Shown here piece by piece: positions 5,334 through 25,843 of a DNA stretch of 64,000 nucleotides (within the stretch, counting starts at the first letter, position 1; each line of letters opens with the position of its first letter). Position numbers and translations under genes: made by a program. The notes beneath the pieces were generated by a model. That model had not been told where the DNA came from. It searched no databases and saw nothing but the letters and a program-made list of their open reading frames with translations. This DNA comes from Dictyostelium discoideum (lineage: Eukaryota), in contig CM000155.2 in assembly GCA_000004695.1 (NCBI GenBank), positions 1,152,001 to 1,216,000 on the forward strand, in the 5' to 3' direction.

Positions 5334-6168
5334 ATTAATACACAAAAATAAAGAATATATAAATATTTTTTTTTTTTTTAATTTAATTTAATTTAATTTA
5401 ATCTTGCATTTGACAAGAATTGTTTTATTAATTTGAAGTTTTTTTTTTTATTATTTATTTCTTTATTTCTTTCTTTCTTTCTTTCTTTTTATTTTTATTT
5501 ATTTTTTTATTTTGACTATCGATACAATTGCTTTTTTTTTTTATTTTTTATTTTTTAATTTTTTTTTATTTAATAATAATAATAAAATTTTGAAAGATTT
5601 TATTAATTGCTATTATTAATTGATTTTGATTGATAAATTGATAAAATTCTTAATTATGAACACAAAAATAATAATGCTTTATTAAGCAGTTGCAGTGCCC
5701 AAAAGTCTCTTTTTGTGAAATAATGAATAAATTAGGAATGATGATGCTGAAATTAAAATAAACCAAAAACTATTTGTTTTAGCAACACTTTTCTTTTTTG
5801 TTTCTTCTTCTTCTGTTGAAAACTTTTTAAAAATTGATCTGAAAATCATTTTTTAATATTATTTAATTTTGTATTTGATTTCGTAAAATATGAATAATGG
5901 GAAAAAATTAATGAAAAATGAAAAAAAAAAAAAAAAAAAAAATCAAAAAAAAAAAAGAATTAAAAAATTATAATTTTAAAATTGTTTCCACATTCAAATT
6001 AAGTGTGTAATTAATTTAAATATATTATTTTAAAACATTTCTCCACACACTCATTACATGAATTATAATATTTTAATTTTTTTATATTTTTTTTTGTAAA
6101 CCATTTTTAGAGAGGGGGTATATATGTTTGGGCATGGTTTTTTTTTTATTCATTTTTAAAATTTATGC

Positions 6169-6215
<47 letters not shown>

Positions 6216-6290
6216 AATATTATTAATTAAATAAATGAAATATAAGTATTAAGTTGGAATAAGAACTCTTATCAGACTTTTTTGTTAATG

Positions 6291-6322
<32 letters not shown>

Positions 6323-6498
6323 AAATACTAATAAAAAGGGTTATTGATTTTTCATTGAAAATATTAAAATTAAAAGGGATAAATTTCACTATAAATAAAA
6401 GGGATTTTTTTTTTTATAAATCATTTCAAATAAACATTTTAAAAAACAAAAAAAAACCTAAAAAAAAAAACTAAAAAACTAAAATCAATAATAAAAAA

Positions 6499-6640
6499 AA
6501 TGACAATCATTGGTAAATATCTTTTCAAAAAAAAAAAAAAAACCCAAAAAAAAACCCAAAAAAAAAGACCCAAAAAAAAAGACCCAAAAAAAAAGACCCA
6601 AAAAAACCCAAAAAACCCAAAATTACCCAAAAACCGAAAA
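6499..6640. repeat. Minisatellite of a ~13-bp unit (A8-9 GACCC / A7-9 CCC) repeated about 9 times.
   Basis: The tandem units aaaaaaaaagaccc and aaaaaaaaaccc are directly visible. Confidence 0.6.
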
Positions 6641-6744
6641 GAAATATTAATATTAAATTTTTAAATTAAAAAAAAGGGTTATGTTAATAGGTTAAATTTC
6701 TTTTTTAGGTTCAATAAAAAAATCAAAATCCTCATCAATTAAAG

Positions 6745-6942
6745 GTGGTAGCAGGGAATCAGGATTTGGTGGAAAAGGCAAATGCTGATTATAATGTCTT
6801 TACTTCATTAATTGGAGGTGCAATTTTATCAATTGTTGGGGCAACATCTGGCTTAGTAATTGGAGCAATCGATGGTTTTACAAGGGGTTTTGAATTTGGT
6901 GCCCCTTTATTTGCCCCCCCAATTGTTGGCAAATTAATTTAA
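6745..6942 (+). other. Open segment encoding a glycine-zipper hydrophobic peptide (..NVFTSLIGGAILSIVGATSGLVIGAIDGFTRGF..). It has no ATG. It may be a terminal exon or a non-coding part of a repeat. It is paralogous to 9168..9272.
   Basis: It shares ~85% nucleotide identity with 9168-9272, flanks included. The frame is open from 6718. The only start is a GTG at 6745, which follows ttaaAG. It contains a GxxxGxxxGxxxG motif. Confidence 0.2.
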
Positions 6943-6954
6943 TCTCATGTGCTC

Positions 6955-6985
<31 letters not shown>

Positions 6986-7597
6986 ATTCCAATTCTCCAA
7001 TTAATTTTACTATTACAATAAATTAAAAAACTAAAAATATAATATAATAAAACTAAACTAAAAATATAAATTTTTAAAAAAATTTAAAAAATTAATTATT
7101 AATGTTGATTTTAAAAAAAAAGAAAAAAAGAAAACATAAAATAATTTCTATTGGTACATTTTAAATACCGAAACCAGATATTTATTTTTTTCATAGAAAG
7201 AATCGCTCATTTTTTTTTTTTTTTTTTTTCAAAAAAAAATTTTTTTATTGGACAAGAAATAAAATCTAAATTTTTTTTTCTTTTTTTTTTTTTCTTTTTT
7301 TTTTAAAAATCATCGTTCGTTATCTTAAAATAAAATTTGAAAAAAAAAAAATTGAAAAAAAAAAAGAGTTCTTCATACTAAAAATATTTTTTTTCCCCCC
7401 CCTATTTTAAATATCATCCAATTCTATAGACTCTTTCTTTTTACCTTTTTGATTTTTTTTTTTTTTAATAAAAAAAAAAAGAATAAGAAAAAAAAAGTAT
7501 TTAAACAAAAAAAAAAAAAAAATATTATTCAATTAAAAACAAAAAATATTTATATCTTGTAATTAATAATAATAACATTAGAAATAAACATTTAACA

Positions 7598-7632: not shown

Positions 7633-8147
7633 ATGAAATTAATTATCTCATTATTAATTCTCATTTGTACATTAAAATTATCATTTGGATGTGAAGGTGA
7701 CTTCAATCCAACCACTGCCAATATTGGTCAATGTTCAGCAAGTCAAACCGTTGGTTGGGTACCAGCTGCACCAGAGTATGGAACTGAGACATTAAAAGTT
7801 TGGACTCCAGAAGAATTAAGCCCAGAAGAAAGAGATATGCATGAACATCGTATGGCCTACATTTTAGCAATCTCAAAACAAACCAGAAGAAAATTTGTCA
7901 CCTCCATCTATGCTCAAAATGGTACTCTTTTATGCCATGGTGTTAATACTGGTAAACCAAATTTAATGACTCATGGTGAAGTTGCTGCAATTAACAATTG
8001 TACATCATTATATAACATAAGTTCATACACTAATATGACTCTCTACACAACTGGTGAACCCTGCGCGATGTGCTTAAGTATTAGGACCAACAATTAATTA
8101 TCATTATTATTTTTTTATTTATATATTTATTAATTTTTTAATTATTT

Positions 8148-8194
<47 letters not shown>

Positions 8195-8758
8195 CTTTCT
8201 TCCCTACAGGCTAGTGCATTATTATGGTTAGACTTCAAAGTTGTTGTTTGGGGTACTTGGAATTCTGATCTTATGTGTAAAGTTTGTATGGGTCAAATTC
8301 CAATGGATTCAAACTATATTTTCTCACGTTACTATGGTGTTAGAGCAACTCCACCAACTTTAATTGGTGGTATTCTTCGTAATGAAACTGATGCTTGGTT
8401 CACACCATATTGTAATAACCCAGCTTCACCATACTATGTTAAACCAAAATGTGCATGTTACAACTCAACTTCACCATTGGTAATTAATCAAGTCTCTTCC
8501 TCTACTTGGTATGAAGGCCCAAACAACACCAAATACAGTCAATTCGATGGTAAAATCTTAAACAATGCTAATTACGCTGTTAACAATCCAACTTTCACAT
8601 CCTCACCATCAGGTGTTAAACCACGTACTATTTGGGGTTTAAAGAATGAAGGTGGTGATATTTGGTCATTATCATATTACCCAGTCATTAGCGGAAATGG
8701 TGGAGCTTTCCCATTTGGTTATATTAGCACTCAAGAAATTACCTTTAAAGCTAATTAA
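7633..8758 (+). CDS. Secreted TadA/guanine-deaminase-like (CDA-fold) zinc deaminase with a CBM-like C-terminal domain, copy 1. Exons 7633..8073 and 8210..8758. The donor at 8074 is the non-canonical TTAAGT, so this copy may be a pseudogene.
   Basis: N-terminal signal peptide (MKLIISLLILICTLKLSFG). The zinc motifs are HGEVAAI (H-x-E) and GEPCAMC (P-C-x-x-C). The second exon continues the fold (ASALLWLDFKVVVWGT..IGGILRNETDAWF) behind a polypyrimidine tract and ccctacAG. It is paralogous to 24701..25843. Confidence 0.6.
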
Positions 8759-9272: not shown

Positions 9273-9453
9273 TTTAATTTAATCTACAAATAACTAACCA
9301 ATTCTCATCAATATTTTGGACTGAAAAAAAAAAAAAAAAAGAAAATCTATTGAAATAGTAAAAATAATTGGAGAATTGGAATATTAAAAAAAGTAATATA
9401 AAAAGTATTTAATTAAATATAATAATAAAAAAAAAATCCGCATTTTTTATATT

Positions 9454-9998
9454 TTATTTAATATAAAGAGATATAATTAACATAAGTTTATGCAGTTGGT
9501 TGGAAAGCAATTTGGTCTTCACCATCGATGATGTAACCGAATGAGAAGGTTTGACCTGTTGGATGACTGGATACCATTGGAGAGCCCAAGTATTTTTGGT
9601 TTCATCAACAGCAAGACCCCAGATTGAGTTTGGACGGAGTGGAGATGAGGTGAAGGTTGGGTTGGTGACGGTTACTGAACCAGTGTTGGTGATGATACCA
9701 CCGAATTGAGAGACAGTTTTACCGTTTTCGAACCATGAGGAGTAAAGAGTTTGATCGATCTTTAATGGTGAAGTAGTGTTGGTACAGACACATTGTGGTT
9801 TAATGTAATAGATTGAAGTTGGTTTGCTACAGTATGAACCGAAACAGGCGTCAGCTTCAGTACGTAAGACACCACCGATAACTCTTGGTGGGCTAGCTCT
9901 TAAACCATAGTAACGACCCAAGATGTATGAGGAATCCATTGGGATGTTTGACATTCAGATTTTGCAAAGTAAATCACTGTTGAAGGTACCCCAGACAA
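9454..9998 (-). pseudogene. Decayed 3' fragment of a deaminase paralogue (second-exon region only).
   Basis: Homologous to 24701..25230. There is an in-frame TGA where the intact copies have TAT (gacattcag vs gacatacag near 9950). A 1-bp deletion near 9555 (cctgttgg vs cctggttgg) shifts the frame of the last ~25 codons. Homology to the intact copy ends at 9998, and no first exon lies upstream. Confidence 0.6.
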
Positions 9999-10320
9999 TG
10001 TGCTGAATGGTCTATTCGTGCAAACCGGGTAATAAAAGGTATTTTTTTTAAAAAAAAAAATGGACTACATGGGCTGAACTGTTTATTAGTGCCAACCGGG
10101 CTGATACAAGGTTTTTTTTTTTTTAAAAAAAAATAAATTGACTGCAAAGATTGACTGATAAAAGGTTTTTTTTTTAAAATGGGCAAAAATAAGGTTTTAA
10201 ATTTTTGATACGGACTGCACGGGCTAATCGAGATAAAAAAAAAAATATCACACTGACTACAAATTATTTTTTTAAAATAAAAAAGGACTACACAGGCTTA
10301 TAAAAAGGTTTTTTTTTAAA
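9990..10320. repeat. Irregular array of short GC-richer motifs (GGACTRCAYGGGCTR...) separated by T(n)A(n) spacers.
   Basis: Four or more related units are visible: ggactacatgggctgaactg, gccaaccgggctgatacaagg, cggactgcacgggctaatcgag, ggactacacaggcttataaaaagg. Confidence 0.4.
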
Positions 10321-11261
10321 AAATTAAAAAAAAAAAAAAATAAAAACAATAAAAAAACGATAAAAACATTACAATTTTTTAATTTTTTTATTTTTTCTTT
10401 TTTAAATGTATTTAAAAAATAAAATATATTTAATAAGAAAATATGAATATATTGTTTGAGACTTTGCAAAAAAAAAAAAAAACCTGAATGTATGTAGTAT
10501 TTTTTATTATTAATTTTTATTTTTTTTTATTTTTATTTTCTGGAAAATTAAAATAAAAAATCACTTTGCATATTATTTTAAGTTTTGTATTATTAATAAA
10601 TAAATAAATTATTTTACATTCTTATTTAGGAGAAAACCAATAAAATAAAAAATAATAAAATGAAATAATAAATAACGTTAATTTTTTTTTTTTTAGGTAA
10701 TGTGTGGTAAATTTTGAAAAAAAAATAAAATTTAATTAAAGTAATAACTAACAATTTTACATTTATATTTAGGAGTTTAAATCAAAAAAAATGAAATTAA
10801 AAATAATCAAATTAATAATATTAATAAATAAATAAAAAAAAAAAAAAAAAAAAAAATAAAATTACCGCATTATTTCATTTTTATTATTTTTTATTGAATA
10901 CTTTTTTTTTAAAAATAGATGGTTTTTTTAAAAATATTTAAGCCCACGTATATCCTAAAAAAACCTTTAAATAAATAACCGTTTCAAAAAAAGACGGTTA
11001 TTTATTTAAATATCTAAAAAAATAATTTTGTAAGGGCTGTACTCAACCCTTTAAAGTGCTGTACGGGCTATGCCCAAAATTAAAAACTTTGAGCACAACC
11101 CGCACAGCACTCTTAAGTGTTGCGCACAGTCCTTACAATGTTTTTACAATTTTGTTTGGGCTGTTGGGGCTTATAGTGCCAAAGTTAAAATTTTTCTCAG
11201 TGGTCGTGTATCTTTTTATATATATATGTTTTACAATTGAACTATACCAGATTATTTAATT

Positions 11262-12231
11262 TATCTAATTGTTAGCTGGTTGTAAAGAAATACCTTCTAA
11301 TAATTCTTCATTTTCATCGGTATAATCGACCAAGTCCAAACCAATTTTATTACTCTTGTCTTTATGAATTTGTTTTTTACATGAACGTTCAGTTCTGATA
11401 GCTTCAAAATACTTTGATAATATTAGTACTGCTAATGATGCTTTATTTTTATAGGTGGAACTAAAAACATTCTTTACAATACTAAGTTTGCTCTAAGGTG
11501 TAACATTTCTTGAATTCCCAGAATCTTTTTTTAATTTTAAACCTTGCTTTAAAGGTTGATTTTGAATTTGTTTACATGTTGCAGTGATACCATGATTTGA
11601 TAATAATTTATCTCTAATAGTTGATACACTTGGATCATCTTCAAATAATTTTTTTAAATGGAGTTGATTGGTTTCATCCCATAATTGATCACCAATAAAT
11701 TTAAAATTTGGAAGTTTAGTTAAATTATAGTTTCTTCCATCAACCAAAGTTGTGAAGAATTTTGATTAGCAACATTTTCCATCATTTGTGGTCTGTTAGC
11801 ATATGCAAAGAGAGCAGTTACAAAAAGATTTTCTTGATGCATGTCCCATGCTTGGCCAACCTTAGTACCATTATTAAATTTAACCTCTTGCAAGATTGGA
11901 ATTTCTTTCTTGGCACCTTCTATTCTGTCAACAAAACTATTAACTTGAGTACTATTAATGTTGATACCAGAGCACTTCATTTCAACAGAGGTATGAATAA
12001 TTTCCACCATGCATGACGAAGGCTTTAACAAAGGCTTGGATTGATGGCAAACTCCAGAGATATGCATCTTTGCCAGAGTAAACAAGTTGGCAGATACTTT
12101 GATAGAATGAGAACATTCGGTTATCGAAATTTAACTTTCCTTCAGGTTGTTGAATACCTTCACACAAATTATTAGGAATTAAACTAATATTTGGATTATC
12201 AAAAGTACTAAAATCAACAAAATGAACATTT
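11262..12231 (-). pseudogene. Pseudogene copy of the 345-aa element protein (paralogue of 18735..19772).
   Basis: ORF-track fragments 11493..11747, 11720..12085 and 11982..12167 together cover the homologue in three frames. The start codon is lost (ttattaaa vs tactcat). Several indels shift the frame. Confidence 0.6.
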
Positions 12232-12257
12232 TTTTTTTTTTTTGAAACATATTTATT

Positions 12258-12260
<3 letters not shown>

Positions 12261-12349
<89 letters not shown>
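12261..12349. repeat. Poly(T) homopolymer of ~89 nt (poly-A on the minus strand) just upstream of the decayed 345-aa ORF copy.
   Basis: Direct inspection. The equivalent tract in copy B (19773..19819) abuts the ATG of the intact ORF. Confidence 0.9.
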
Positions 12350-12352
<3 letters not shown>

Positions 12353-12565
12353 TTTACATGTATGTTTATTTATTTATTTATATTTATTTATTATTATATT
12401 CATTTGAAACCTTTTATTCATTATATTTTTTTTTTTAATAAATTATAGATATTATATATATAGAATACTATGGGTAAAAGGAAATAATAATGTTTGTTTG
12501 TAGTTGAAAATATTAAAATTAAAAATAAAAAAAAAAATATAACAAAAAAGATTTTATTTTAATAA

Positions 12566-12606
<41 letters not shown>

Positions 12607-13562
12607 CTTAAAATTTTTTTTTAAAAATTGTGTTTTTATATTTTCCAAACATACTTCATTTAAGGGGGGTCAGATTTACAATCATTTTAAAGGAATGGGG
12701 TTATAAATTTTCTTAAAATAATATTTTAAAATATCTTTGAAGTTAAACATATTTATGTATTTATATAATGATACGATTAGTTTATCAAAATGTGTTTGGT
12801 TGTTTATTATTATAATTGGTTGTTTATTATTATTATTATTTTTTTTAATTAATTACTGCATTTCTTTATTAGATTTAATAATAGTTTAGAAATAATAAAA
12901 TAATATATAAAAAATAAAAAAAAATAATATTAGTTGAAATAATAAAATTTTATATGGTATAATAAATAATTAAATAGTTTGAAATAATATATTAGTAAAA
13001 TTAAATAGTAAAATTAAAATAATAATTTGATACATATATTATTTTATAGATAAATAGTTCAATCATTGAAATAATAACAACAACAACAATAATAATAATA
13101 ATAATTATATATATATCATATTAATAATTAAAACTAGTTTGAAATTAATGGTAATTTAAAGGTTGATATAAATAAATTCAAAAAAATTTGTATGTATTAT
13201 TTTAGTTACTACCTACTACTTTTAAACATGTTGTATTAACATTATATTCAAATTTTTTATTACAATTCCTATAGATACAACTGTCTTTGATAAAAACATT
13301 TCACCTCAAATTAGTAAGTATTTTATTTTTATTATAGTATAGGTAACACTAGCGTTATTCTACAACTTTTTATATATTAACCTTGATAATAAATAATTCT
13401 TTAATCCGATTACTATAAAGATGAAATTTTAGATCTATTTGAATTTGGTATGTTTTAAATTTTATTATTATTATTTATAATTGCAATTATTAATTCTCAA
13501 CATTGGTGTATTAATATAAATTCAATAATTATTTAGATACTACAAAATCATCATATGAAGAT

Positions 13563-14068
13563 GTGATTGAAGAATACAGTAAATTTGAAAATGATTCTCT
13601 TGGATCATTTGAATATCTTGATTACAGTGATTTACGTTTATTATCTAAAAGAAAGTGGAATAATAAAGAAGCTTTAATCATAGGTAATGGTAAAAGTAAT
13701 TATAAAACAACTGTACAAATAAAAGGTGATTTGTTAGATAAAGGTTATTTTAGAACTGAACTTGCTATTGATACATAGTTTGATAGAAATAAGTATTAAT
13801 AAATAAAATGGTTAAAAATTTTAAAAGTACTCAAGAAACCATCACCAGTCATTTCAAGAAATTGGAGTCCAGATGAACAAAAAGCATTAATGGTTGAAGT
13901 TTCTACACTTGGTAATAAATCTGAAATCAACTGGTTTTTCATTTCTCAACAACTCTTTTTAAAAGGTATTAGTAGAAATGCAAGAGAATGTCAAAGAAAA
14001 CATGAATCAATCCAATATGTTGGTCTTTCAGGTAATCCAAAAGCTAAATTTAAAGGAACTTTTGATTA
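13563..14068 (+). pseudogene. Pseudogene copy of the Myb/SANT-domain 171-aa ORF (paralogue of 21788..22303).
   Basis: TAG at 13776 where copy B has TAC. A 1-bp deletion and a 7-bp deletion downstream (aaaccatcacc vs aaattataaaaccatcacc) shift the frame. Confidence 0.55.
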
Positions 14069-14696
14069 GTTTGTCATATATTTTAAATAAATAACATCTT
14101 CAATATAAAAAATTTCCAATAATTTTATTTTCTTTTTTTTTTGTTATTGATAGTACTTATAACAAAAAATGAATGATAAATAATTAAATTCTAAAAATAA
14201 AATTTTTGATTTAAAAAATAAAATAAAAAATTCAAAAAATAGAATGATTACACGGTGTTTATGATAATAATTTTTTTTTTAATTTTAAAAATTTTTTTAT
14301 TTTAATTTTTAATTTTTTTTTTTATTTTTTTTACCAATTCCAGTCTGTAAACAACATTCATGTATCGATCGTTGTCTACTGGTCCATGTCGATCATGTAA
14401 GTTAAAAACAAGTCCATATGTCGTTGTGGAAAGACCATTGAAAATAGACAATGTGGTTCAACAAGATATGACAAAGCATTTACTTGTGATGTTTGCAAAA
14501 TTCATGAATGTTGTCCAAGCACACCAACACATGATGAAGCAGGTAACCAAGATTGTATAATTTATTCTACATTTTCTTCACTCGATCCAAATTCACAAGA
14601 ATATGCAAATAAATTACAAATTGAGCCATTACAGTCTATATCAATAGTATCACCAAAAATTATTAAAAAAATTGAACCAATCCTTATAAAGATTGT

Positions 14697-14698
<2 letters not shown>

Positions 14699-14785
<87 letters not shown>
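14699..14785. repeat. (AGT)n trinucleotide repeat of ~29 units, reading as poly-Ser in the open plus frame.
   Basis: Direct inspection. A shorter version lies at 23857..23888 in copy B. Confidence 0.9.
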
Positions 14786-14786
14786 T

Positions 14787-15110
14787 TTAATAAATAATAA
14801 AAAATGAATTAATAATAAATTGTAAAGATAAAAAATTAAATAAATTTAATAATAATGAAATTAGAGTAGTATGTTTGCATTCTAATGAATCGATGTATTG
14901 TTGATATGTTAATCTTGATAATGTATAGGTTTTCAAAATTGTCATCCTTGCTATTGTGATCGCTTGACTTTTCCATTTGCTAAGATTATCTTTGATTGCT
15001 GTCAATTTTGAATTTAAACCTATTTTGGTGAAATTGAGACCTAAATATCTTTCTGGTGCATCGCTTAATTTGAATGGTAACCTTGGAGGTATGTCCCCAA
15101 TTACCATCAG
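14787..15110 (-). mobile_element. Fragment of a non-LTR (TRE/LINE-like) retrotransposon reverse transcriptase (3' thumb region only).
   Basis: The minus-strand translation ..PFKLSDAPERYLGLNFTKIGLNSKLTAIKDNLSKWKSQAITIARMTILKTYTLSRLTYQ.. matches the conserved post-YxDD segment of LINE RTs (F/YLG, K..KW...GR..L.K...L..Y). There is no upstream RT, endonuclease or ORF1. Confidence 0.4.
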
Positions 15111-15970
15111 GAAATCCCAAATACTTAATTCGGTTACTTATTTTAAATATGGAGTTAATATTTTGAAAAACTCTATAAATTGGATCATCTGGTAGTTGTG
15201 TTGAAGCAGTAGTGGTATTTGCAGTTGGTTTGTTTAAATTAAAAGTTGTTGGAGTATTTGAGGTTTGACCAACTGAATTATGGTTAGCAGAATTAGTATT
15301 GGTGGTGTTACAGGTAGCCATTATTTGATTAAAAATTTAAAATAATTATAAAAAATAATTTTACAATAAAATGAAAAATTTAATTTGTTATTAATATATT
15401 ATTATATTATTGTATATTAAAAAAAGATTGATTATTATTTTTTTTCAGAACCAATTAAAAAAGTACAAATCAGGTGGTAGTATTAACCAATTTGTATTTC
15501 ATCAGATGAAGGAGAATCATCAAACAAATATGATAATTATGATGATTATGAATCAGTCCTTAATCACCAATTTTACTAAAAAAGATGTTCCAACACAATA
15601 CCAACATTATTTGATAATACTAATTCAAGCAAATGCCCTGGTGTTTTTTTTCCAATACTTCAAATTTAAAACTTTATCGAAAATAATATTCGTTAAATTA
15701 TTAAATTAAGTAATATTACCATTTGAGCCTTAAAAAACACAATAGGTATTATCATCTTTGAAAAGTAAAAACATCCCTGCACAAACTGGGATATACAATT
15801 TAAAAAAAAAAAAACATTTTAGCTTTTTCTTGTAATTAATTTATTTTGTTATTTTGTATTATGTTTTGTATAAAAAGAAATTCCAAAAATAAAAAAGTTA
15901 TTCCAAAAAAAAAAATCGGCGTTGTTGTTTATATTTTATTTAATATAAAGAGATATAATTAATTATAAGT

Positions 15971-16477
15971 TTATGCAGTTGGTTGGAAAGCAATTTGGTC
16001 TTCACCGTCGATGATGTAACCGAATGAGAAAGTTTGACCTGGTTGGATGACTGGATACCATTGGAGAGCCCAAGTATTTTTGGTTTCATCAACAGCAAGA
16101 CCCCAGATTGAGTTTGGACGGAGTGGAGATGAGGTGAAGATTGGGTTGGTGACGGTTACTGAACCAGTGTTGGTGATGATACCACCGAATTGAGAGACAG
16201 TTTTACCGTTTTCAAACCATGAGGAGTAACGAGTTTGATCAATCTTTAATGGTGAAGTAGTGTTGGTACAGACACATTGTGGTTTAATGTAATAGATTGA
16301 AGTTGGTTTGCTACAGTATGAACCGAACCAGGCGTCAGCTTCAGTACGTAAAACACCACCGATAACTCTTGGTGGGCTAGCTCTTAAACCATAGTAACGA
16401 CCAAAGATGTATGAGGAATCCATTGGGATGTTTGACATACAGATTTTGCAAAGTAAATCACTGTTGAAGGTACCCAT
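15971..16477 (-). pseudogene. 5'-truncated deaminase paralogue (second-exon region from ..GTFNSDLLCKICM.. to the stop, intact frame).
   Basis: Near-identical to 24701..25210. Homology stops at 16477 (gaaggtaccc|atcttataag). No first exon or acceptor is present. The 3' flank is shared with copy 4. Confidence 0.6.
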
Positions 16478-17191
16478 CTTATAAGACCAATTAATTCCAA
16501 TGTGGCTTCATCTGTTGCAAATCGATTTTCATTTATTAACTCTTATAATAATCTATCAAAAATTAATAAAATTTCTTTTTTTTTAACATATTTTAAAATT
16601 ATTTATTAATTTTTAATAAATTTTATTATTAGTATTATTTTTTTAATATTAAAATTATAAATAAATGATTAATAAATTATTATTATTCACTAAATAATAT
16701 TATTTTTTGATTAATAAATAATTTCTATAATAAATAAGGAATATATTATTTGAAAAAAAATAAAAATTCTTATATTTTAAAATTTTTTATTTACACCCAT
16801 TATTTTTTATCATTTTATTATAGTTTTTAATAATATATAATATCATATTGTAACTCAAAAATATCTTGTTTATACTAATATTTATTTAATTTTATGAAAT
16901 GTTCTAAATAGAACATTTAAAAATAACTATTAATATTGAATTAATAATTCAATATTAATTATTGCTAACTTAATTTATTTTAATAAATTGTTTCATTTTA
17001 TATAATAAACTCACTAAACACAACTAAATAATAATTCAAAAATAAATAATAATAATTTAGAATATAGTTTTGTTTCAACATTTTATTATAACACATACAA
17101 TTCAGAAAATAATAATAATTTATTTTATTGTTTTGTTTAAAGGGGTTTTCTCCCGTTGTAATTAAATTTAATTAATTTTAAATTTAATTTT

Positions 17192-17233
<42 letters not shown>

Positions 17234-17414
17234 TTAATTTGAATTTCACAAAAGTTTTCATAATAGATATTAGATACCAGATATTAAAAATGTCACACAA
17301 AATCACCATATAAAATAATAATATAAATTTAAAAATAATTTAATTAAAAAGAAAATAATAATTAATTAGAATAAAATTAAAATAATATAATATTGTAGTT
17401 TAAATTGGATCTAA

Positions 17415-17542
17415 CCCTATCGGCTGAGGTTGGAGTAGTTAACAGATTTGAGTCTGCTCAAATCTGAGGACTATAAAAGGAAACTAGGTTTCTAATTCAA
17501 CCTCAGTAATAAATATATACAAATAATAAAAACGCGATAGGG
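17415..17542. other. Conserved nested-hairpin element. It may be a structured RNA or a repeat-internal structure.
   Basis: Outer stem ccctatcg (17415-22) pairs with cgataggg (17535-42). Second stem ctgaggttg (17424-32) pairs with caacctcag (17498-506). Inner 10-bp stem cagatttgag / ctcaaatctg (17443-66) has a 4-nt loop. The copy at 22876..23000 keeps all the stems but has a different loop (tctg vs cgaa) and differences in the unpaired part. Confidence 0.3.
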
Positions 17543-17701
17543 CTACGGTCATTAATTAAATACATGTGTACATTTATTTCTTAAATAATTAATCATTTAT
17601 TTTAATAATAAAATAAATAAATTGAATAATAATAAAACAATAAATAAAATTAATAATAATAAATAATCAAATTTTATTAAATAATTTATTAAAAAAAAAG
17701 A

Positions 17702-18070
17702 ATGTCAACTAATAATAATAATAACAACAATAATAATAATGAAGATATTGATAATGATGAATTGCAACAACAGGATAATGAGGAACAACAACAACAACCA
17801 CAGGTATCAACTTTCAATGAACAGCAACGTCAAATAAGGGAACAGCAACAGGTAATAGATAAACAAAATCAACTTCTTCAACAACACATTCAATTAATAA
17901 ATCAACAATCTCAACAACAATTAAATAACCATTCGACACCACCATCATCACCCAACATTACAACACCAATAACTTCAGCAGCAATAACCAACACAATAAA
18001 GAAATCATTAGGAAAAATTAACACTGATGACACCGACCACCAGTTGTTACACATATATGATAAACTATAG
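17702..18070 (+). CDS. 122-aa Gln/Asn-rich ORF of unknown function belonging to the composite repeat.
   Basis: ATG-initiated ORF. A truncated direct copy lies at 23164..23322. An inverted partial copy of its 3' half lies at 23470..23640. Confidence 0.35.
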   Translation: MSTNNNNNNNNNNEDIDNDELQQQDNEEQQQQPQVSTFNEQQRQIREQQQVIDKQNQLLQQHIQLINQQSQQQLNNHSTPPSSPNITTPITSAAITNTIKKSLGKINTDDTDHQLLHIYDKL

Positions 18071-18734
18071 TTTTATGTTTTAAAAAATGAGAAATTACAA
18101 TAGTATTATTTCCTATTAATTGTTGTATATTATTAAATTATAGGTTTATGTTTTAAAAAATGAGAAATTACAATAGTATAATTTCTCAAAATATGGTAGA
18201 TAAATAAATTTTTTATAGTTTAATGACAAATTAATATTCAATTTTAATTAAAATATTATTAGATTTTATCAATTTTTAATTTATATTAAAATATATTTTT
18301 ATTATGGCCAGATTCTTTTTTATTATTTTATGATAATTTAATAATAAAGTGTGATTAATTATTAATTAGAAATTAATATTAGTTTGTTATAAATTTTATT
18401 AAATTATAATATCATTTCTTAAAATATAAGTTTTTGCGGGTTTAATTTCTCACAAAATAGTAAAATTTCTTAGTTTTTTTTCTCTGGTGAAATAAAATAA
18501 TATAAAATAAAATAAAATAAAATAAAACAAAATAAAACAAAACAAAACAAAACAATTTGAACCCATTTCATCTTCTAAATACACGAAAATTAAAATAAAA
18601 AACACATGTGTTGCAACACTTTTTTTTTTTATTACTTTTTTTATTATTTTTTTTATTATTTTTTTTTTATGATCTTTTTATATATATATTTTACAATTTT
18701 ACTATTCTATAATACCAGATTATTTTATTTAGAT

Positions 18735-19769
18735 CTAATTGCTAGCTGGTTGTAAAGAAATACCATCTAATAATTCTTCTTCATTTTCATCGGTATAATC
18801 GACCAAGTCCAAACCAATTTTAATACTCTTGTCTTTATTAATTTGTTTTTTACATGAACGTTCAGTTCTGATAGCTTCGAAATACTTTGATAATATTAGT
18901 ACTGCTAATGATGCTTTATTTTTATAGGTGGAACTAAAAACATTCTTTACAATACTAAGTTCTTCTTTGCTCCAAGAGGTAACATTTCTTGAATAAGTAG
19001 AAACTTTTTTTAATTTTAAACCTTGCTTTAAAAGTTGACTTTGAATTTGTTTACTTGTTACAGTGATACCATGATTTGATAATAATTTATCTCTAATAGT
19101 TGATACACTTGGATCATCTTCAAATAATGTTTTTAAATGGAGTTGATTGGTTTCATCCCATAATTGATCACCAATAAATTTAAAATTAGGAAGTTTAGTT
19201 AAATTATAGTTTCTTCCATCAACCAAATTTGTGAAGAATTTTGGACTTAAATTATAACCATTTAAATGAAAAATGTTGCTAATCATTTGTGGTCTGTTAG
19301 CATATGCAAAGAGAGCAGTTACAAAAAGATTTTCTTGATGCTCGTCCCATGCTTGGCCAACCTTAGTACCATTATTAAATTTAACCTCTTGCAAGATTGT
19401 TGGAATCTCTATCTTGGCACCTTCTATTCTGTAAACAAAACTTTTAACTTGAGAACCATTAACGTTGATACCAGAGCACTTCATTTCAACAGAGGTATGA
19501 GTTTTATTTCCACCATGCATGACGAAAGCTCTAACAAAAGCTTGGATTGATGGCAAAGTCCAGAGATATGCATCTTTGCCAGAGTAAACAAGTTGGCAGA
19601 TACTTTGATAGAATGAGAACATTCGGTTATCGAAAAAAAATAATACCTTTCCTTCAGGTTGTTGAATACCTTCACACAAATTATTAGGAATTAAACTAAT
19701 ATTTGGATTATCCAAAGTACTAAAATCAACAACATGAACATTTTTTTTTGTTTTTGAAACCTTTTTACT

Positions 19770-19772
<3 letters not shown>
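18735..19772 (-). CDS. 345-aa ORF of unknown function with a Myb/SANT-like C-terminal segment. Element-encoded protein.
   Basis: Intact ATG-to-stop ORF. The start codon is immediately preceded by a 47-nt poly-A (minus-strand sense). The C-terminal WSKEELSIVKNVF...LSKYFEAIR resembles a SANT/Myb helix pattern. I recognised no DDE or transposase motifs. Confidence 0.5.
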
Positions 19773-19821
<49 letters not shown>

Positions 19822-20607
19822 TTAATAAATTATTGATATTATATATATATAATATTATGGGTATAGTTGAAAATATGAAAATTAAAAATAAAAAAAAAAT
19901 ATAACAAAAAAGATTTTATTTTAATAACAAAAATAAAAAAAAAAAAAAAAAAAAAAAAATCTTAAAATTTTTTTTTAAAAATTGTGTTTTTATATTTTCT
20001 AAACATACTTCATTTAAGGGGGTCAGATTTACAATCATTTTAAAGAGATGGGGGGTTATAAATTTTCTTAAAATAATATTTTAAAATATCTTTGAAGTTA
20101 AACATATTTTAAAATAATATTTTAAAATATCTTTGAAGTTAAACATATTTATGTATTTATATAAATATATATAATGATACGATTAGTTTATCAAAATGTG
20201 TTTGGTTGTTTATTATTATAATTGGTTGTTTATTATTATTATTTTTTTTTTTTTTAATTAATTACTGCATTTCTTTATTATTAGATTTAATAATAGTTTA
20301 GAAATAATAAAATAATATATAAAAAATAAAAAAAAATAATATTAGTTTGAAATAATAAAATTTTATATGGTATAATAAATAATTAAATAGTTTAAAATAA
20401 TATTAGTAAAATTAAATAGTAAAATTAAAATAATAATTTGATACATATATTATTTTATAGATAAATAGTTCAATCATTGAAATAATAACAACAACAACAA
20501 CAACAATAATAATAATAATTATATATATATCATATTAATAATTAAAGCTAGTTTGATAAATTATTATATATTAGCATATTAAATAAAATTAATAATAATT
20601 TATAAAA

Positions 20608-21354
20608 ATGGATGAACCTTCAACAGATAAAATTTTAATTGGTGCTCAAATCATTACAACAGTTATAACATTGTTCACTGGTGTTTTTGAATTTATTATT
20701 GCTGCAAAAAGCAAAATGAAAAGAATGAAAAGTGAACAAATGTTTTCAGTAAATCAAGATGGATTAATACATATTATTAAATCACTATTACCAGGTCGTA
20801 ATATAATTTTCATCAGCAATGCACCAACCAGCACCACAGATCCATCATTCAACAGCCAGACAATGAAAAACTTTTTAAAAGTAATATTTAGATTACTACC
20901 GTTTTTCATTGGTGCTGTCTTTATACATTTAAATATAATACCGTTTCATCATTTAATTATTTTTACTGAAAATGGTAAATGGTACTTTGATAGTATACAA
21001 GAAGAATTAATACCTATTGTAAAAGAAAGATTAAAGCAAATAATGTCATCTCAACCTGATGTCATATTTGCATGTGGTGCTGTGGTAAGGGATATATTTT
21101 ATATGTATCTTGAAGAAGGTTCAATTGAAATGGTTGGTAATAATATATTCGTGTATATAAATAAAGATGGTACGAAAAAAACTATTATTTGTTTTGTTCC
21201 ACACTTTTGTACTCGTAAAGATCATTGGAAGTTTATTGCTCAAGGATTATTATTTATTCATACTCATTTCAAATTATCAACATTCAATACAAATTATTTT
21301 GAAAAAAACAAACCAGAAATTAATTTTAAAGATATTAGATATATAGTTCTTTAA
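20608..21354 (+). CDS. 248-aa ORF of unknown function with a hydrophobic N-terminal segment. It is present only in copy B of the element.
   Basis: ATG at 20608. Absent from copy A, where the flanks ctagtttga.. are fused. Confidence 0.35.
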   Translation: MDEPSTDKILIGAQIITTVITLFTGVFEFIIAAKSKMKRMKSEQMFSVNQDGLIHIIKSLLPGRNIIFISNAPTSTTDPSFNSQTMKNFLKVIFRLLPFFIGAVFIHLNIIPFHHLIIFTENGKWYFDSIQEELIPIVKERLKQIMSSQPDVIFACGAVVRDIFYMYLEEGSIEMVGNNIFVYINKDGTKKTIICFVPHFCTRKDHWKFIAQGLLFIHTHFKLSTFNTNYFEKNKPEINFKDIRYIVL

Positions 21355-21787
21355 ACTAGTTTGAAATTAATGGTAATTTAAAGGTTGATATAAATAAATT
21401 CAAAAAAATTTGTATGTATTATTATTTTAGTTACTACCTACTACTTTTAAACATGTTGTATTAACATTATATTCAAATTTTTTATTACAATTCCTATAGA
21501 TACAACTGTCTCTGACAAAAACATTTCACCTCAAAGTAGTAAGTATTTTATTTTTATTATAGTATAGGTAACGCTAGCGTTATTCTACAACTTTTTATAT
21601 ATTAACCTTGATAATAAATAATTCTTTAATCCGATTACTATAAAGATGAAATTTTAGATCTATTTGAATTTGGTATGTTTTAAATTTTATTATTATTATT
21701 TATAATTGCAATTATTAATTCTCAACATTGGTGTATTAATATAAATTCAATAATTATTTAGATACTACAAAATCATCATATGAAGAT

Positions 21788-22303
21788 GTGATTGAAGAAT
21801 ACAGTAAATTTGAAAATGATTCTCTTGGATCATTTGAAAATCCTGATTACAGTGGTTTCCATTTATTATCTAAAAGAAAGTGGAATAATAAAGAAGCTTT
21901 AATCGTAGGTATTGGTAAAAGTAATAATAAAACAACTGTACAAATAAAAGGTGATTTGTTAGATAAAGGTTATTTTAGAACTGAACTTGCTATTGATACA
22001 TACTTTGATAGAAATAAGGTATTAATAAATAAAATGGTTAAAAATTTTAAAAGTACTCAAGAAATTATAAAACCATCACCAGTCATTTCAGGAAATTGGA
22101 GTCTAGATGAACAAAAAGCATTAATGGTTGAAGTTTCTACACTTGGTAATAAATCTGAAATCAACTGGTTTTTCATTTCTAAACAACTCTTTTTAAAAGG
22201 TATTAGTAGAAATGCAAGAGAATGTCAAAGAAAACATGAATCAATCCAATATGTTGGTCTTTCAGGTAATCCAAAAGGTAAATTTAAAAGAACTTTTGAT
22301 TAG
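21788..22303 (+). CDS. Myb/SANT-domain protein (171-aa ORF). The 5' end is unresolved. The track start is GTG and the frame is open from 21740, so an upstream exon is likely.
   Basis: The motif WSLDEQKALMVEVSTLGNKSEINWFFISKQLFLKGISRNARECQRKH is a canonical Myb/SANT repeat. An acceptor-like ttatttAG lies at 21759-21760. Confidence 0.45.
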   Translation: MIEEYSKFENDSLGSFENPDYSGFHLLSKRKWNNKEALIVGIGKSNNKTTVQIKGDLLDKGYFRTELAIDTYFDRNKVLINKMVKNFKSTQEIIKPSPVISGNWSLDEQKALMVEVSTLGNKSEINWFFISKQLFLKGISRNARECQRKHESIQYVGLSGNPKGKFKRTFD

Positions 22304-22641
22304 TTTGTCATATATAAATAAATAACATATTCAATATAAAAAATTTCCAATAATTTTATTTTCTTTTTTTTTTTTTATTGATAGTACTTTTAACAAAAAA
22401 TGAATGTAAATAATTAAATTGTAAAAATATAATTTTTGATTTAAAAAATAAAATAAAAAATTCAAAAAATAAAATAATTACACCGGGTGTCTAATTTGAA
22501 TGTTACTATTAATAATTTTTTTTTTAATTTTAAAAATATTTTTATTTTAATTTTTTATTTTTTTTTTTATTTTTTTTACCAATTCCAGTCTGTAAACAAA
22601 ATCATTAAATACTTAATTAATTTTAAATTAAATTTAATTTT

Positions 22642-22686
<45 letters not shown>

Positions 22687-24700: not shown

Positions 24701-25335
24701 TTATGCAGTTGGTTGGAAAGCAATTTGGTCTTCACCGTCGATGATGTAACCGAATGAGAAAGTTTGACCTGGTTGGATGACTGGATACCATTGGAGAGCC
24801 CAAGTATTTTTGGTTTCATCAACAGCAAGACCCCAGATTGAGTTTGGACGGAGTGGAGATGAGGTGAAGGTTGGGTTGGTGACGGTTACTGAACCAGTGT
24901 TGGTGATGATACCACCGAATTGGGAGACAGTTTTACCGTTTTCAAACCATGAGGAGTAACGAGTTTGATCGATCTTTAATGGTGAAGTAGTGTTGGTACA
25001 GACACATTGTGGTTTGATGTAATAGATTGAAGTTGGTTTGCTACAGTATGAACCGAACCAGGCGTCAGCTTCAGTACGTAAGACACCACCGATAACTCTT
25101 GGTGGGCTAGCTCTTAAACCATAGTAACGGCCAAAGATGTATGAGGAATCCATTGGGATGTTTGACATACAGATTTTGCAAAGTAAATCACTGTTGAAGG
25201 TACCCCAGACAATGGTTTTGAAGTCAGCCCACAAAAGAGCAGCTGAGCACATGGCGCATGGCTCTATAGGAGTTTGTTAGTTGTTCAATTGATTGATCAC
25301 ATGATCATTCATTATTATTTTTTAAAAAAATAAAA

Positions 25336-25395
<60 letters not shown>

Positions 25396-25843
25396 AGTAT
25401 TTGTAGATTAAAACATTATTATTACATATTAATTACTTACCTCCAGAAGTGTAAAGAGTGTAGTTGGTGAAAGAGGTGATACCGTGTAAAGCAGTACAGT
25501 TGTTGATGGCAACGATTTCACCATGTGAAATGATATTTGGTTTACCAGTGTTGACACCAAGACACATTAAAGTACCATTTTGGTGGTAGATTGAAGCAAC
25601 GAATTTCTTATTTTGTTGTTTGGCGATGGCAAGGACGTAAGCCATACGTTCTTCGTGCATACCTAATTCTTGTGGATCGAGATCAGCTGGAGTGAGAACT
25701 TGAGCATTGTCGGTTGGTTTCCAGCTTACTTTTTGAGTGGCTGTACATTCACCGATGGTTGAAATGTTTGGATTGAATTCATCGCATGCAAATGATAATG
25801 CAATAAATGCGAGTAAAATAGTTAATAATAAAGCAATCTTCAT
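24701..25843 (-). CDS. Secreted TadA/guanine-deaminase-like zinc deaminase with a CBM-like C-terminal domain, copy 4 (apparently intact). Minus-strand exons 25441..25843 and 24701..25263 (~321 aa).
   Basis: Signal peptide MKIALLLTILLAFIALSFA. Core motifs are HGEIVAI and, across the intron, G|EPCAMCSAALLWADFKTIVWGT. Exon 1 ends at phase 1 on a GTAAGT donor (rc of acttac at 25435-25440). The acceptor is cctatAG (rc of ct at 25264-25265). The C-terminal ~110 aa (CVCTNTTSPL..WFENGKTVSQFGGIITNTGSVTVTNP..NTWALQWYPVIQPGQTFSFGYI) reads like a CBM2-type beta-sandwich. Confidence 0.65.
25337..25393. repeat. Poly(A) homopolymer of ~57 nt inside the deaminase intron.
   Basis: Direct inspection. Confidence 0.9.

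What the first reader, a model, noticed from the sequence alone, without database searches (positions are those of the whole stretch)
8060..8215. Paralogous deaminase genes have introns at different positions; copy 1 has TTAAGT where a GTAAGT donor is required
In copy 4 the single intron splits the Glu codon of GEPCAMC (..TSG|gtaagt...atag|AGCCATGC..). In copy 1 that region is contiguous (ggtgaaccctgcgcgatgtgc), and the only frame-preserving intron lies 5 codons later, after Cys (TGC|ttaagtatt ... ccctacag|GCTAGTGCA). The canonical GT alternatives in copy 1 either shift the frame or delete the second zinc-ligand Cys. So either copy 1 is a very recent pseudogene (a G>T donor mutation), or it uses a non-canonical donor, or there is a sequence error. 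Either way the two paralogues differ in intron position.
Basis: seen in the sequence. Interest (0 to 1): 0.5.

Follow-up and report, generated by a model that had tools for sequence, protein, structure and literature searches.

The report
Deaminase gene with TT splice donor
A secreted deaminase gene of the Dictyostelium discoideum reference strain really has T instead of the obligatory G at the start of its only intron; the variant is genuine and recurs in relatives, but without RNA data I cannot tell whether the gene is broken or the odd intron is still spliced.

Summary
The window is D. discoideum AX4 chromosome 6. Copy 1 is DDB_G0292080 and copy 4 is DDB_G0292096, the "CDD" protein of multilamellar bodies. 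Orthologues fix copy 1's intron at 8074-8209, phase 0, after the second Cys of PCxxC. One D. discoideum strain has TGT|GTAAGT there and three sister species have GT. AX4 has TGC|TTAAGT.

It is not a sequencing error. An independent AX4-like assembly and a divergent strain also carry T. So does a group-2 paralogue in a cryptic sister species that acquired this intron. All have intact reading frames.

No canonical GT/GC-AG intron yields the conserved protein. The 320-aa database model is a forced fit that deletes the helix after PCxxC.

The donor lies in a 75-nt patch about ten times more variable than the rest of the gene, with footprints of gene conversion between paralogues.

Intron positions are unstable here. 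Copy 4's intron lies 17 nt upstream and is a recent gain. One relative's copy-1 intron has moved 4 nt.

Most likely (about 0.5) the T allele is splicing-defective, made or spread by conversion. A functional TT-AG intron (about 0.3) is not excluded. RNA data would decide.

The parts
7633..8073 (+). Copy 1 (DDB_G0292080) exon 1. It encodes the signal peptide, the HGE motif and PCAMC, and ends with the codon of the second zinc-ligand Cys (TGC).
   Evidence: Pfam PF00383 E=7e-11 on the spliced product. The same exon end is seen in 6 orthologues.
8074..8209 (+). Copy 1 intron, 136 nt, phase 0, TTAAGTATT...(T)~50...CCCTACAG. The ancestral boundaries are kept but the first base is T instead of G.
   Evidence: It is homologous to the introns of strains ACTFIW (TT) and ACTFIR (GT) and to the intron of the ACTFIY neighbour gene (TT).
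8074..8074 (+). The variant base: T at intron position +1. It is G in D. discoideum ACTFIR, D. cf. discoideum ACTFIZ, D. firmibasis and D. dimigraforme.
8210..8758 (+). Copy 1 exon 2. It encodes the rest of the helix after PCxxC (ASALLWLDF), the remainder of the deaminase fold and the CBM49 domain. The stop codon is at 8756-8758.
   Evidence: The TadA alignment spans the junction.
8014..8107 (+). Hypervariable patch around the exon 1 / intron junction, covering codons 128-147 and the first ~35 intron bases.
   Evidence: Any two of AX4, ACTFIW and ACTFIR differ at 18-22 positions per 100 bases here, against 0-5 elsewhere in the gene. In the coding sequence, 11-15 of 21-29 differences fall within 75 nt (codons 128-152, which continue into exon 2 at 8210-8224), p = 1e-6 to 1e-11.
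8078..8240 (+). The 'intron' used by the AX4 database gene model (EAL61396.1 / Q54DQ7, 320 aa): TTAA|GTATTA ... TTCAAAG|TT. It is a forced GT-AG fit that removes 9 residues of the conserved helix.
24701..25263 (-). Copy 4 (DDB_G0292096, 'CDD') exon 2. It starts AG CCA TGC GCC ATG TGC TCA GCT.
25264..25440 (-). Copy 4 intron, 177 nt, canonical GTAAGT..CTATAG, phase 1 inside the Glu codon of GEPC. It lies 17 nt upstream of the copy-1 intron position.
   Evidence: It is absent from the D. firmibasis, D. purpureum and P. violaceum orthologues.
25441..25843 (-). Copy 4 exon 1.
   Evidence: The translation is a complete 321-aa protein.
9562..9999 (-). Copy 2: a 3' fragment of a group-2 deaminase gene, truncated upstream at a 71-nt tandem repeat. 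It carries an in-frame TGA and a frameshift, so it is a pseudogene fragment.
16001..16474 (-). Copy 3: a second 3' fragment of a group-2 gene, 98% identical to copy 4 over 300 nt.

Best explanation
Copy 1 is DDB_G0292080, a secreted CDA-fold zinc deaminase with a C-terminal CBM49 domain. Its real structure is two exons split by one phase-0 intron immediately after the second Cys of PCxxC.

In the AX4 lineage the first intron base is T instead of G. The most likely consequence (inferred) is that correct splicing fails or is very inefficient. U1 can still pair with positions +2 to +9 (UAAGUAUU). But with U at +1, catalysis is expected to stall or to move to the GU four bases downstream. That adds 4 nt to exon 1 and gives TGC TTA AGC TAG, a stop after two extra codons. 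On this reading the AX4 allele is a young null or strong hypomorph in an otherwise intact gene.

The T was most likely made or spread by ectopic gene conversion between copy 1 and the group-2 paralogues. Those paralogues have no intron at this site and usually have a T (Ser TCN) directly after the Cys codon. The intron is flanked by G...G, so a looped-out intron in a heteroduplex can sit one base off register. The paralogue's T would then lie opposite intron +1. This register-shift mechanism is my hypothesis and is not shown.

The family is redundant and turns over quickly: copy 4 is expressed, and copies 2 and 3 are truncated. Such alleles could therefore persist.
For: Shown directly:
- A canonical donor at the identical boundary in strain ACTFIR (TGT|GTAAGT) and GT in three sister species fixes the intron position. 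It also shows that G is ancestral.
- T is real. It is present in an independent AX4-like assembly and in strain ACTFIW.
- No canonical intron restores the conserved protein in AX4, ACTFIW or the ACTFIY neighbour gene.
- The junction lies inside the helix that follows PCxxC (residues 145-154 of the model) and aligns with TadA [20 protein letters not shown]. Every canonical-site isoform therefore removes core structure or a zinc ligand.
- The junction is a substitution hot spot, with 15-20% difference in 75 nt against 0.8-1.6% elsewhere.

Conversion footprints:
- AX4 copy 1 has TGC GCG ATG TGC T. This is identical to the ACTFIW group-2 neighbour (TGC GCG ATG TGC TCC) and includes the rare GCG codon.
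- ACTFIY copy 1 carries 18 nt of group-2 sequence at the start of exon 2, TCT GCT GCT CTT TTG TGG.
- The ACTFIY group-2 neighbour carries a copy-1 tract that includes the intron.

From established knowledge:
- Changing G to T at position +1 of a U2-type donor normally abolishes correct splicing.
- Dictyostelium lacks the minor spliceosome (PMC11347168).

Family turnover: copies 2 and 3 are truncated fragments inside 98%-identical segmental repeats.
Against: - The same T occurs in three contexts: AX4 copy 1, ACTFIW copy 1 on different flanks, and the ACTFIY group-2 neighbour. These span two lineages with dS of about 0.15-0.2, and every reading frame is intact.
- If T were shared by descent and disabling, AX4 and ACTFIW should differ in a neutral pattern. 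They show 18 synonymous and 8 non-synonymous differences, omega 0.12, p = 3e-7 against neutrality.
- The null reading therefore needs several recent, independent origins at the same base.
- The register-shift mechanism does not obviously explain ACTFIW. Its patch (PCSMC|ASA) resembles a paralogue that has Ala (GCN), not Ser, after the Cys.
- Two of three distinct D. discoideum haplotypes carry T. That is a high frequency for a deleterious null in a gene with omega of 0.1-0.2 between species.
- No transcript or peptide data were available either way.
Confidence: 0.5

Rival explanations
1. The intron is a functional non-canonical U2-type TT-AG intron. The otherwise perfect donor (T|TAAGTATT) and a normal branch, polypyrimidine and AG region let the Dictyostelium spliceosome remove it at the ancestral boundaries. 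The product is the full 329-aa deaminase. On this reading the T allele is old, nearly neutral and still under purifying selection. It has been carried between alleles and paralogues by recombination and gene conversion.
For: - Three genes or alleles in two lineages carry TTAAGTATT at the identical boundary, all with intact frames.
- TT-AG at the ancestral boundaries is the only splice that gives the conserved protein in all three. No canonical in-frame alternative is shared by all three.
- The four homologous introns (AX4, ACTFIW, ACTFIR, ACTFIY neighbour) form one family, and three of the four have T. This fits a single old origin.
- AX4 versus ACTFIW has omega 0.12. The ACTFIY neighbour spliced TT-AG has omega 0.14-0.18 against its D. 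discoideum orthologues.
- There is a precedent: a constitutive TT-AG junction in human ETV1 (PMC4176328).
Against: - From established knowledge of the spliceosome, G at +1 is needed for both catalytic steps, and +1 G>T mutations are classic null alleles.
- TT-AG introns are extremely rare and are often treated as artefacts (PMC5716242).
- Much of the synonymous excess lies in the conversion patch, where it could be copied from functional paralogues rather than reflect selection on this gene.
- Lineage-specific substitution counts outside the patch are too few to test constraint.
- The ACTFIY copy-1 allele looks like a repaired version with a new canonical GT 4 nt upstream. That suggests TT was disadvantageous.
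- There is no transcript evidence.
Confidence: 0.3
2. A cryptic canonical donor is used and gives an in-frame but internally deleted protein. One case is donor 8078 with acceptor 8231 (323 aa, CAMC-LN-FKVVVW). Another is the database model, donor 8078 with acceptor 8240 (320 aa). The protein would be secreted with an intact CBM49 domain but a crippled deaminase domain.
For: - These combinations are in frame in both AX4 and ACTFIW.
- Gene predictors chose them: 320 aa in AX4 and 323 aa in ACTFIW.
Against: - The acceptors lie inside conserved coding sequence, 22-31 nt downstream of a strong pyrimidine-tract acceptor that would have to be skipped.
- The deletion removes the helix at residues 145-154, which packs behind the zinc site.
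- The codons that would be skipped (ASALLWLD) are conserved in the TT alleles.
- No equivalent in-frame option exists in the ACTFIY neighbour gene.
Confidence: 0.12
3. The T at 8074 is a sequencing or assembly error in the reference, and the real base is G.
For: The AX4 reference is known to contain single-base errors that distort gene models (PMC5282741).
Against: - An independent assembly with an identical coding sequence but a different poly-T length (GCA_054883475.1) has the same T.
- A divergent strain (GCA_054859355.1) has T on different flanking bases.
- A G-to-T substitution is not a typical homopolymer-length error.
Confidence: 0.02

Closest known systems
Splice-donor +1 G>T loss-of-function alleles / polymorphic unitary pseudogenes
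   Same: A single transversion at the invariant first intron base in an otherwise intact gene. It segregates within the species: G in strain ACTFIR, T in AX4 and ACTFIW.
   Different: The same change recurs in three sequence contexts and two lineages without any secondary disabling mutation. It also lies in a gene-conversion hot spot, so it may be templated rather than a simple point mutation.
Rare U2-type non-canonical introns, e.g. the constitutive TT-AG junction of human ETV1 and GA-AG in the FGFR genes (PMC4176328)
   Same: A non-GT first dinucleotide, with the rest of the donor matching the U2-type consensus and a normal AG acceptor.
   Different: Those cases are supported by transcripts, and here there are none. 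Dictyostelium has no minor spliceosome to fall back on (PMC11347168).
Intron sliding / intron position shifts between paralogues (reviewed in PMC3488318)
   Same: Within one small gene family the intron sits at three positions inside 17 nt: phase 1 in the Glu codon, phase 2 in the Met codon, and phase 0 after the Cys. The protein alignment is unchanged.
   Different: The review reports support only for 1-bp sliding. Here a 4-nt shift separates close relatives, and the 17-nt difference reflects a separate recent gain or a conversion-mediated replacement rather than gradual sliding.
DDB_G0292096 'CDD' protein of D. discoideum multilamellar bodies (PMC4920372)
   Same: Same family and architecture (signal peptide, CDA-fold deaminase, CBM49), with 48% amino-acid identity in the local alignment. 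It is copy 4 of this window.
   Different: CDD has a canonical intron 17 nt upstream and is detected as a protein. For copy 1 no expression or protein evidence was found.
TadA, yeast cytosine deaminase and guanine deaminase (CDA fold, PF00383)
   Same: The HxE and PCxxC zinc motifs and the helix after PCxxC align (E = 7e-7 to TadA variants).
   Different: The Dictyostelium proteins are secreted, are fused to a CBM49 carbohydrate-binding domain, and have an unknown substrate.

Membership tests
U2-type GT-AG spliceosomal intron | GT (or GC) as the first two intron bases | tested here: not met
   AX4 has TT at 8074-8075. The homologous intron of strain ACTFIR and those of three sister species have GT.
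U2-type GT-AG spliceosomal intron | AG at the 3' end preceded by a pyrimidine-rich tract, with the short AT-rich length typical of Dictyostelium | tested here: met
   The intron ends ...(T)~50 CTTTCTTCCCTACAG|G and is 136 nt long.
U2-type GT-AG spliceosomal intron | Donor positions +2 to +6 match the consensus TAAGT | tested here: met
   The donor is T|TAAGTATT. The same bases occur in ACTFIR, where the donor is G|TAAGTATT.
U2-type GT-AG spliceosomal intron | Removal restores an open frame collinear with homologues | tested here: met
   Joining 8073 to 8210 gives a 329-aa protein that is 95% identical to P0001 with no gap at the junction.
U2-type GT-AG spliceosomal intron | The intron is actually removed from the transcript | not testable with these tools
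   No RNA data were available. There is no record of the read-through ORF, and no paper mentions the gene.
U12-type (minor) intron | Donor consensus RTATCCTT and presence of a minor spliceosome | tested here: not met
   The donor TTAAGTATT does not match that consensus. No minor-spliceosome snRNA genes are found in D. discoideum according to PMC11347168.
Pseudogene | Disabling lesions in the coding sequence (stops, frameshifts) | tested here: not met
   Both exons are open, and 990 nt are collinear with the orthologues. The only lesion is the donor base.
Pseudogene | Relaxed selective constraint on the lineage carrying the lesion | tested here: inconclusive
   Pairwise omega between the two TT alleles is 0.12. 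However, only about 5 AX4-specific substitutions lie outside the conversion patch.
CMP/dCMP-type (CDA-fold) zinc deaminase, PF00383 | HxE and PCxxC motifs and a Pfam score above the gathering cut-off | tested here: met
   The 329-aa product has HGE at 114-116 and PCAMC at 143-147. PF00383 scores 42.3 bits against a cut-off of 25. The 326-aa canonical-site model retains only a CBM49 hit.
Intron sliding (same intron, shifted boundaries) | An orthologous gene, unchanged protein alignment, and boundaries displaced by a few bases | tested here: met
   ACTFIY copy 1 reads GCA AT|GTAAAT...TTTTTAG|G TGT TCT. The boundary is 4 nt upstream of the position in six other orthologues, and the protein is still 329 aa. 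Homology of the intron bodies themselves is uncertain.
Ectopic gene conversion between paralogues | Clustered multi-base differences that match a paralogue, flanked by normal divergence | tested here: met
   The clearest cases are in ACTFIY, in both directions. For AX4 the matching tract is 13 nt. For ACTFIR no donor was identified.

The most novel reading that the evidence does not exclude
Dictyostelium splices a genuine U2-type TT-AG intron. On this reading the TTAAGTATT donor is an old, selectively tolerated allele. It has persisted across a species split and has been copied by gene conversion from copy 1 into a group-2 paralogue. The same conversion traffic moves intron boundaries by 4 and 17 nt within the family. 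That would be a natural system showing that G at +1 is dispensable in a major-spliceosome-only organism, and it would show how introns relocate.
Probability: 0.3. Interest if true: 0.7.

Novelty: new member of a known kind. Interest (0 to 1): 0.45.

Why it matters
Three practical points follow.

1. The reference annotation of DDB_G0292080 (Q54DQ7, 320 aa, named only "carbohydrate binding domain-containing protein") is a forced GT-AG model that hides a deaminase domain. The ancestral product is a 329-aa paralogue of the multilamellar-body CDD protein. AX4 and its derivatives may be natural nulls for it, which matters to anyone studying this family in lab strains.

2. The locus is a ready-made natural experiment on the need for G at intron position +1. 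T and G alleles of the same intron exist in the same species, so one RT-PCR would give a clear answer.

3. The family shows a recent intron gain, a 4-nt intron shift and transfer of an intron between paralogues, all within 17 nt and at shallow evolutionary depth. Such cases are rarely caught while the intermediates still exist.

Tried and rejected
- **Sequencing error.** Rejected on two independent assemblies.
- **U12-type intron.** Rejected: the donor does not fit, and there is no minor spliceosome.
- **An overlooked canonical splice.** I enumerated all in-frame GT/GC-AG introns in AX4, ACTFIW and the ACTFIY neighbour gene. None gives the conserved protein.
- **Transcript evidence through the protein and contig collections.**
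  - The 154-aa read-through ORF is not on record.
  - Both 90% clusters hold only NCBI genome-derived proteins, so D. discoideum RNA-seq is apparently not represented. The absence is therefore uninformative.
- **Literature.** Nothing on DDB_G0292080 or Q54DQ7, and nothing in the supplements of the transcriptome re-annotation paper.
- **Common origin of the copy-1 and copy-4 introns.** Local alignment against shuffles gave z mostly below 3. There is no convincing similarity beyond AT-rich and consensus sequence.
- **Lineage-specific dN/dS to date the T.** Too few substitutions outside the patch.
- **A GENECONV-like scan of derived sites matching group 2 along the whole gene.** Not discriminating, because many shared derived sites match group 2 everywhere.
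- **tRNA scan of the window.** None found.
- **DNA of the PCSMC-type paralogue (P0030),** the possible conversion donor for ACTFIW.

Full report
**Identity of the locus**

The window has 22.6% G+C. Protein searches identify it as Dictyostelium discoideum AX4 chromosome 6.
- Copy 1 is DDB_G0292080 (EAL61396.1, UniProt Q54DQ7).
- Copy 4 is DDB_G0292096 (Q54DP5).
- Copy 4's product is the "CDD" protein, one of four major proteins of secreted multilamellar bodies (PMC4920372).

Both encode a signal peptide, a CDA-fold zinc deaminase domain and a C-terminal CBM49 domain. For the spliced copy-1 product, PF00383 gives E = 7e-11 and CBM49 gives E = 5e-9.

tblastn finds four copies.
- Copy 1 is at 7633-8758 on the plus strand.
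- Copy 4 is at 24701-25843 on the minus strand.
- Copies 2 and 3 are 3' fragments at 9562-9999 and 16001-16474, both on the minus strand. They are 98% identical to copy 4 and lie in segmental repeats. Copy 2 carries a stop and a frameshift.

**Checking the observation**

- Exon 1 of copy 1 ends ...GGT GAA CCC TGC GCG ATG TGC at 8073.
- The next bases are TTAAGTATT.
- The acceptor ...CCCTACAG ends at 8209, and exon 2 starts GCT AGT GCA.
- Copy 4's intron (25440-25264, GTAAGT...CTATAG, 177 nt) splits the Glu codon: GGA G|...|AG CCA. That is 17 nt upstream of the copy-1 position.
- I enumerated every in-frame GT-AG or GC-AG intron around the site. None gives PCxxC followed by the conserved ASALLWLDFK.

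One correction: two canonical combinations (donor at 8078 with acceptors ending at 8231 or 8240) keep both Cys but delete 6 or 9 residues.

**How the databases handled it**

The 90% cluster around copy 1 holds several differently spliced models of nearly the same gene.
- The AX4 model is 320 aa and reads CAMC-L-IVVW. It uses TTAA|GTATTA...TTCAAAG|TT, window 8078-8240.
- The model from assembly GCA_054883475.1 (locus tag prefix ACTFIT) is 326 aa. It uses GCGAT|GTGCTT...GCTAG|TGC and loses the second Cys.
- The model from GCA_054859355.1 (ACTFIW) is 323 aa.
- Strain ACTFIR and all sister species give a clean 329 aa with ...PCxxCASALLW....

The odd models are artefacts of predictors that insist on GT-AG.

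**DNA of the orthologues**

All copy-1 orthologues have one intron at exactly the same place, phase 0 after the second Cys.

| Source | Exon end and donor |
|---|---|
| ACTFIR (D. discoideum) | TGT\|GTAAGTATT |
| D. cf. discoideum ACTFIZ | TGT\|GTATGT |
| D. firmibasis | TGT\|GTAAAG |
| D. dimigraforme | TGT\|GTAATG |
| AX4 | TGC\|TTAAGTATT |
| ACTFIT | same as AX4 |
| ACTFIW | TGT\|TTAAGTATT |

- ACTFIT has the same coding sequence as AX4 but a poly-T run 17 nt shorter, so it is an independent assembly.
- ACTFIW carries T on clearly different flanking sequence.

G is therefore ancestral, the boundary is fixed, and T is a real variant rather than an error.

**What the correct product looks like**

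- The closest solved relatives are TadA variants and yeast cytosine deaminase. TadA's [21 protein letters not shown] aligns with EPCAMCASALLWLDFKVVVWG across the exon junction.
- I modelled the 95%-identical orthologue P0001 with AlphaFold2 (mean pLDDT 80.6). The model has a helix at 145-154 directly after PCxxC and a strand at 158-161.
- Every canonical-site isoform removes part of that helix or the second zinc ligand.

**A hypervariable, conversion-prone junction**

- Across about 4 kb aligned between AX4, ACTFIW and ACTFIR, the 100 bases from 8008 show 18-22 differences in every pairwise comparison. Elsewhere in the gene the figure is 0-5.
- Within the coding sequence, 11-15 of 21-29 differences fall in 75 nt. 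That is 15-20% against 0.8-1.6%, with p between 1e-6 and 1e-11.
- Most of these differences are synonymous.

There are clear paralogue footprints.
- AX4 copy 1 has TGC GCG ATG TGC T. The ACTFIW group-2 neighbour has TGC GCG ATG TGC TCC.
- In D. cf. discoideum ACTFIY, copy 1 carries TCT GCT GCT CTT TTG TGG at the start of exon 2. That is the group-2 sequence, where copy 1 normally has GCA AGT GCA TTA TTA TGG.

**The ACTFIY locus**

This locus gave two unexpected results.

First, its copy-1 intron sits 4 nt upstream: GCA AT|GTAAAT...(68 nt)...TTTTTAG|G TGT TCT. The protein is still 329 aa.

Second, its neighbouring group-2 gene differs from the D. discoideum group-2 genes in two ways.
- It has no intron at the group-2 site (TCT GGT GAA CCC is contiguous).
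- It carries a copy-1-type tract: GAA CCC TGT TTA ATG TGC|TTAAGTATT...(102 nt)...ACAG|GCA AGT GCA. The sequence returns to group-2 type after that.

That intron is homologous to the D. discoideum copy-1 introns. Its donor is again TT. Spliced TT-AG, the gene gives an intact group-2 protein. Against its D. discoideum orthologues, dS is 0.19-0.23 and omega is 0.14-0.18.

**Age of the introns**

- The group-2 orthologues of D. firmibasis, D. purpureum and Polysphondylium violaceum have no intron.
- The Cavenderia fasciculata gene has one intron elsewhere, after residue 49.
- So the copy-4 intron is a recent gain in the D. discoideum lineage. The copy-1 intron is older, because D. firmibasis and D. 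dimigraforme share it.
- The two introns show no convincing sequence similarity.

**Null allele or functional TT-AG?**

*For a defect*
- Established spliceosome biochemistry and human genetics treat +1 G>T as abolishing correct splicing.
- Dictyostelium has no minor spliceosome (PMC11347168).
- The nearest GU is 4 nt downstream. With the normal acceptor it gives a stop after two codons.
- The family is redundant and visibly decaying in AX4.
- The ACTFIY copy-1 allele looks like a repaired derivative of a TT allele. ATGTGCTTAAGT without GCTT would give AT|GTAAGT.

*Against a simple defect*
- T occurs in three contexts and two lineages, always with intact frames.
- If T were shared by descent and disabling, the 18 synonymous and 8 non-synonymous differences between AX4 and ACTFIW would be very unlikely (p = 3e-7).
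- No canonical in-frame option is common to all three TT genes.
- A constitutive TT-AG junction is documented in human ETV1 (PMC4176328).

*Limits of the evidence*
- Part of the synonymous excess sits in the conversion patch and could be templated from functional paralogues.
- Substitutions outside the patch are too few for a lineage-specific test.

To reconcile recurrence with a defect, I propose that the T is templated (a hypothesis only). Group-2 genes have TGC TCN at this point, and the intron is flanked by G...G. A looped-out intron in a heteroduplex could therefore sit one base off register, which would place the paralogue's T opposite intron +1. This fits AX4 and the ACTFIY neighbour. 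It does not obviously fit ACTFIW, whose patch resembles a PCSMC-ASA paralogue.

**Verdict**

| Reading | Probability |
|---|---|
| Real, recurrent donor variant that most likely cripples splicing, generated or spread by paralogue conversion | about 0.5 |
| Genuinely functional TT-AG intron | about 0.3 |
| Use of a cryptic in-frame site | about 0.12 |
| Sequencing error | about 0.02 |

The question is cheap to settle with RNA data that these tools do not provide. Whatever the answer, the AX4 gene model is wrong. The family also documents an intron gain, a 4-nt intron shift and transfer of an intron between paralogues, all within 17 nt.

Noticed in passing
L007:3001-4058 (D. cf. discoideum ACTFIY, orthologue of window 7633-8758): The copy-1 intron sits 4 nt upstream of its position in six other orthologues: GCA AT|GTAAAT...68 nt...TTTTTAG|G TGT TCT. 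Group-2-like sequence follows at the start of exon 2. This looks like a real 4-nt intron shift between close relatives.
   Followed up: partly
L007:~6061-7058 minus strand (group-2 neighbour gene in ACTFIY): This group-2 gene lacks the group-2 intron. Instead it carries a copy-1-type tract that includes the copy-1 intron, with a TGC|TTAAGTATT donor. So the intron was transferred between paralogues by gene conversion, and TT appears in a third context. The database model (318 aa) is probably mis-spliced.
   Followed up: partly
window 25264-25440 (-), compared with L011, L008 and L009: The copy-4 (group-2) intron is absent from the D. firmibasis, D. purpureum and P. violaceum orthologues. It is therefore a recent intron gain, only 17 nt from the paralogue's intron. 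The mechanism of gain is unknown.
   Followed up: partly
window 8014-8107 and 8210-8224: The junction patch differs by 15-20% between D. discoideum strains, against about 1% elsewhere in the gene. The two middle residues of PCxxC vary (AM, SM, TL, TM, LM). No donor paralogue was identified for strain ACTFIR's version.
   Followed up: partly
window 9380-25071: Segmental repeats spaced 6.5-8.7 kb apart carry two truncated group-2 deaminase fragments (copies 2 and 3), 98% identical to copy 4. In strains ACTFIW and ACTFIR the gene next to copy 1 is full length (321 aa), so AX4 has lost the 5' half of that neighbour.
   Followed up: partly
window 9998-10134 (degenerate copies continue to ~10300): A 71-nt tandem repeat (1.9 copies, 80% matches) directly abuts the truncation point of copy 2. 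Its nature is unknown, and no tRNA gene was found in the window.
   Followed up: no
window 8146-8196: The poly-T run in the copy-1 intron is about 50 nt long. It differs by 17 nt between AX4 and the otherwise identical ACTFIT assembly. This may be true length polymorphism or homopolymer assembly noise.
   Followed up: no
Protein cluster of P0003 and sequences: Other strains and species have a further group-2 paralogue on another contig (MNKIALLFTIFF..., 322 aa; P0030, P0031, P0036). No AX4 member of this type appears in the cluster, where the only AX4 entry is DDB_G0292096. Whether AX4 lacks it was not checked.
   Followed up: no
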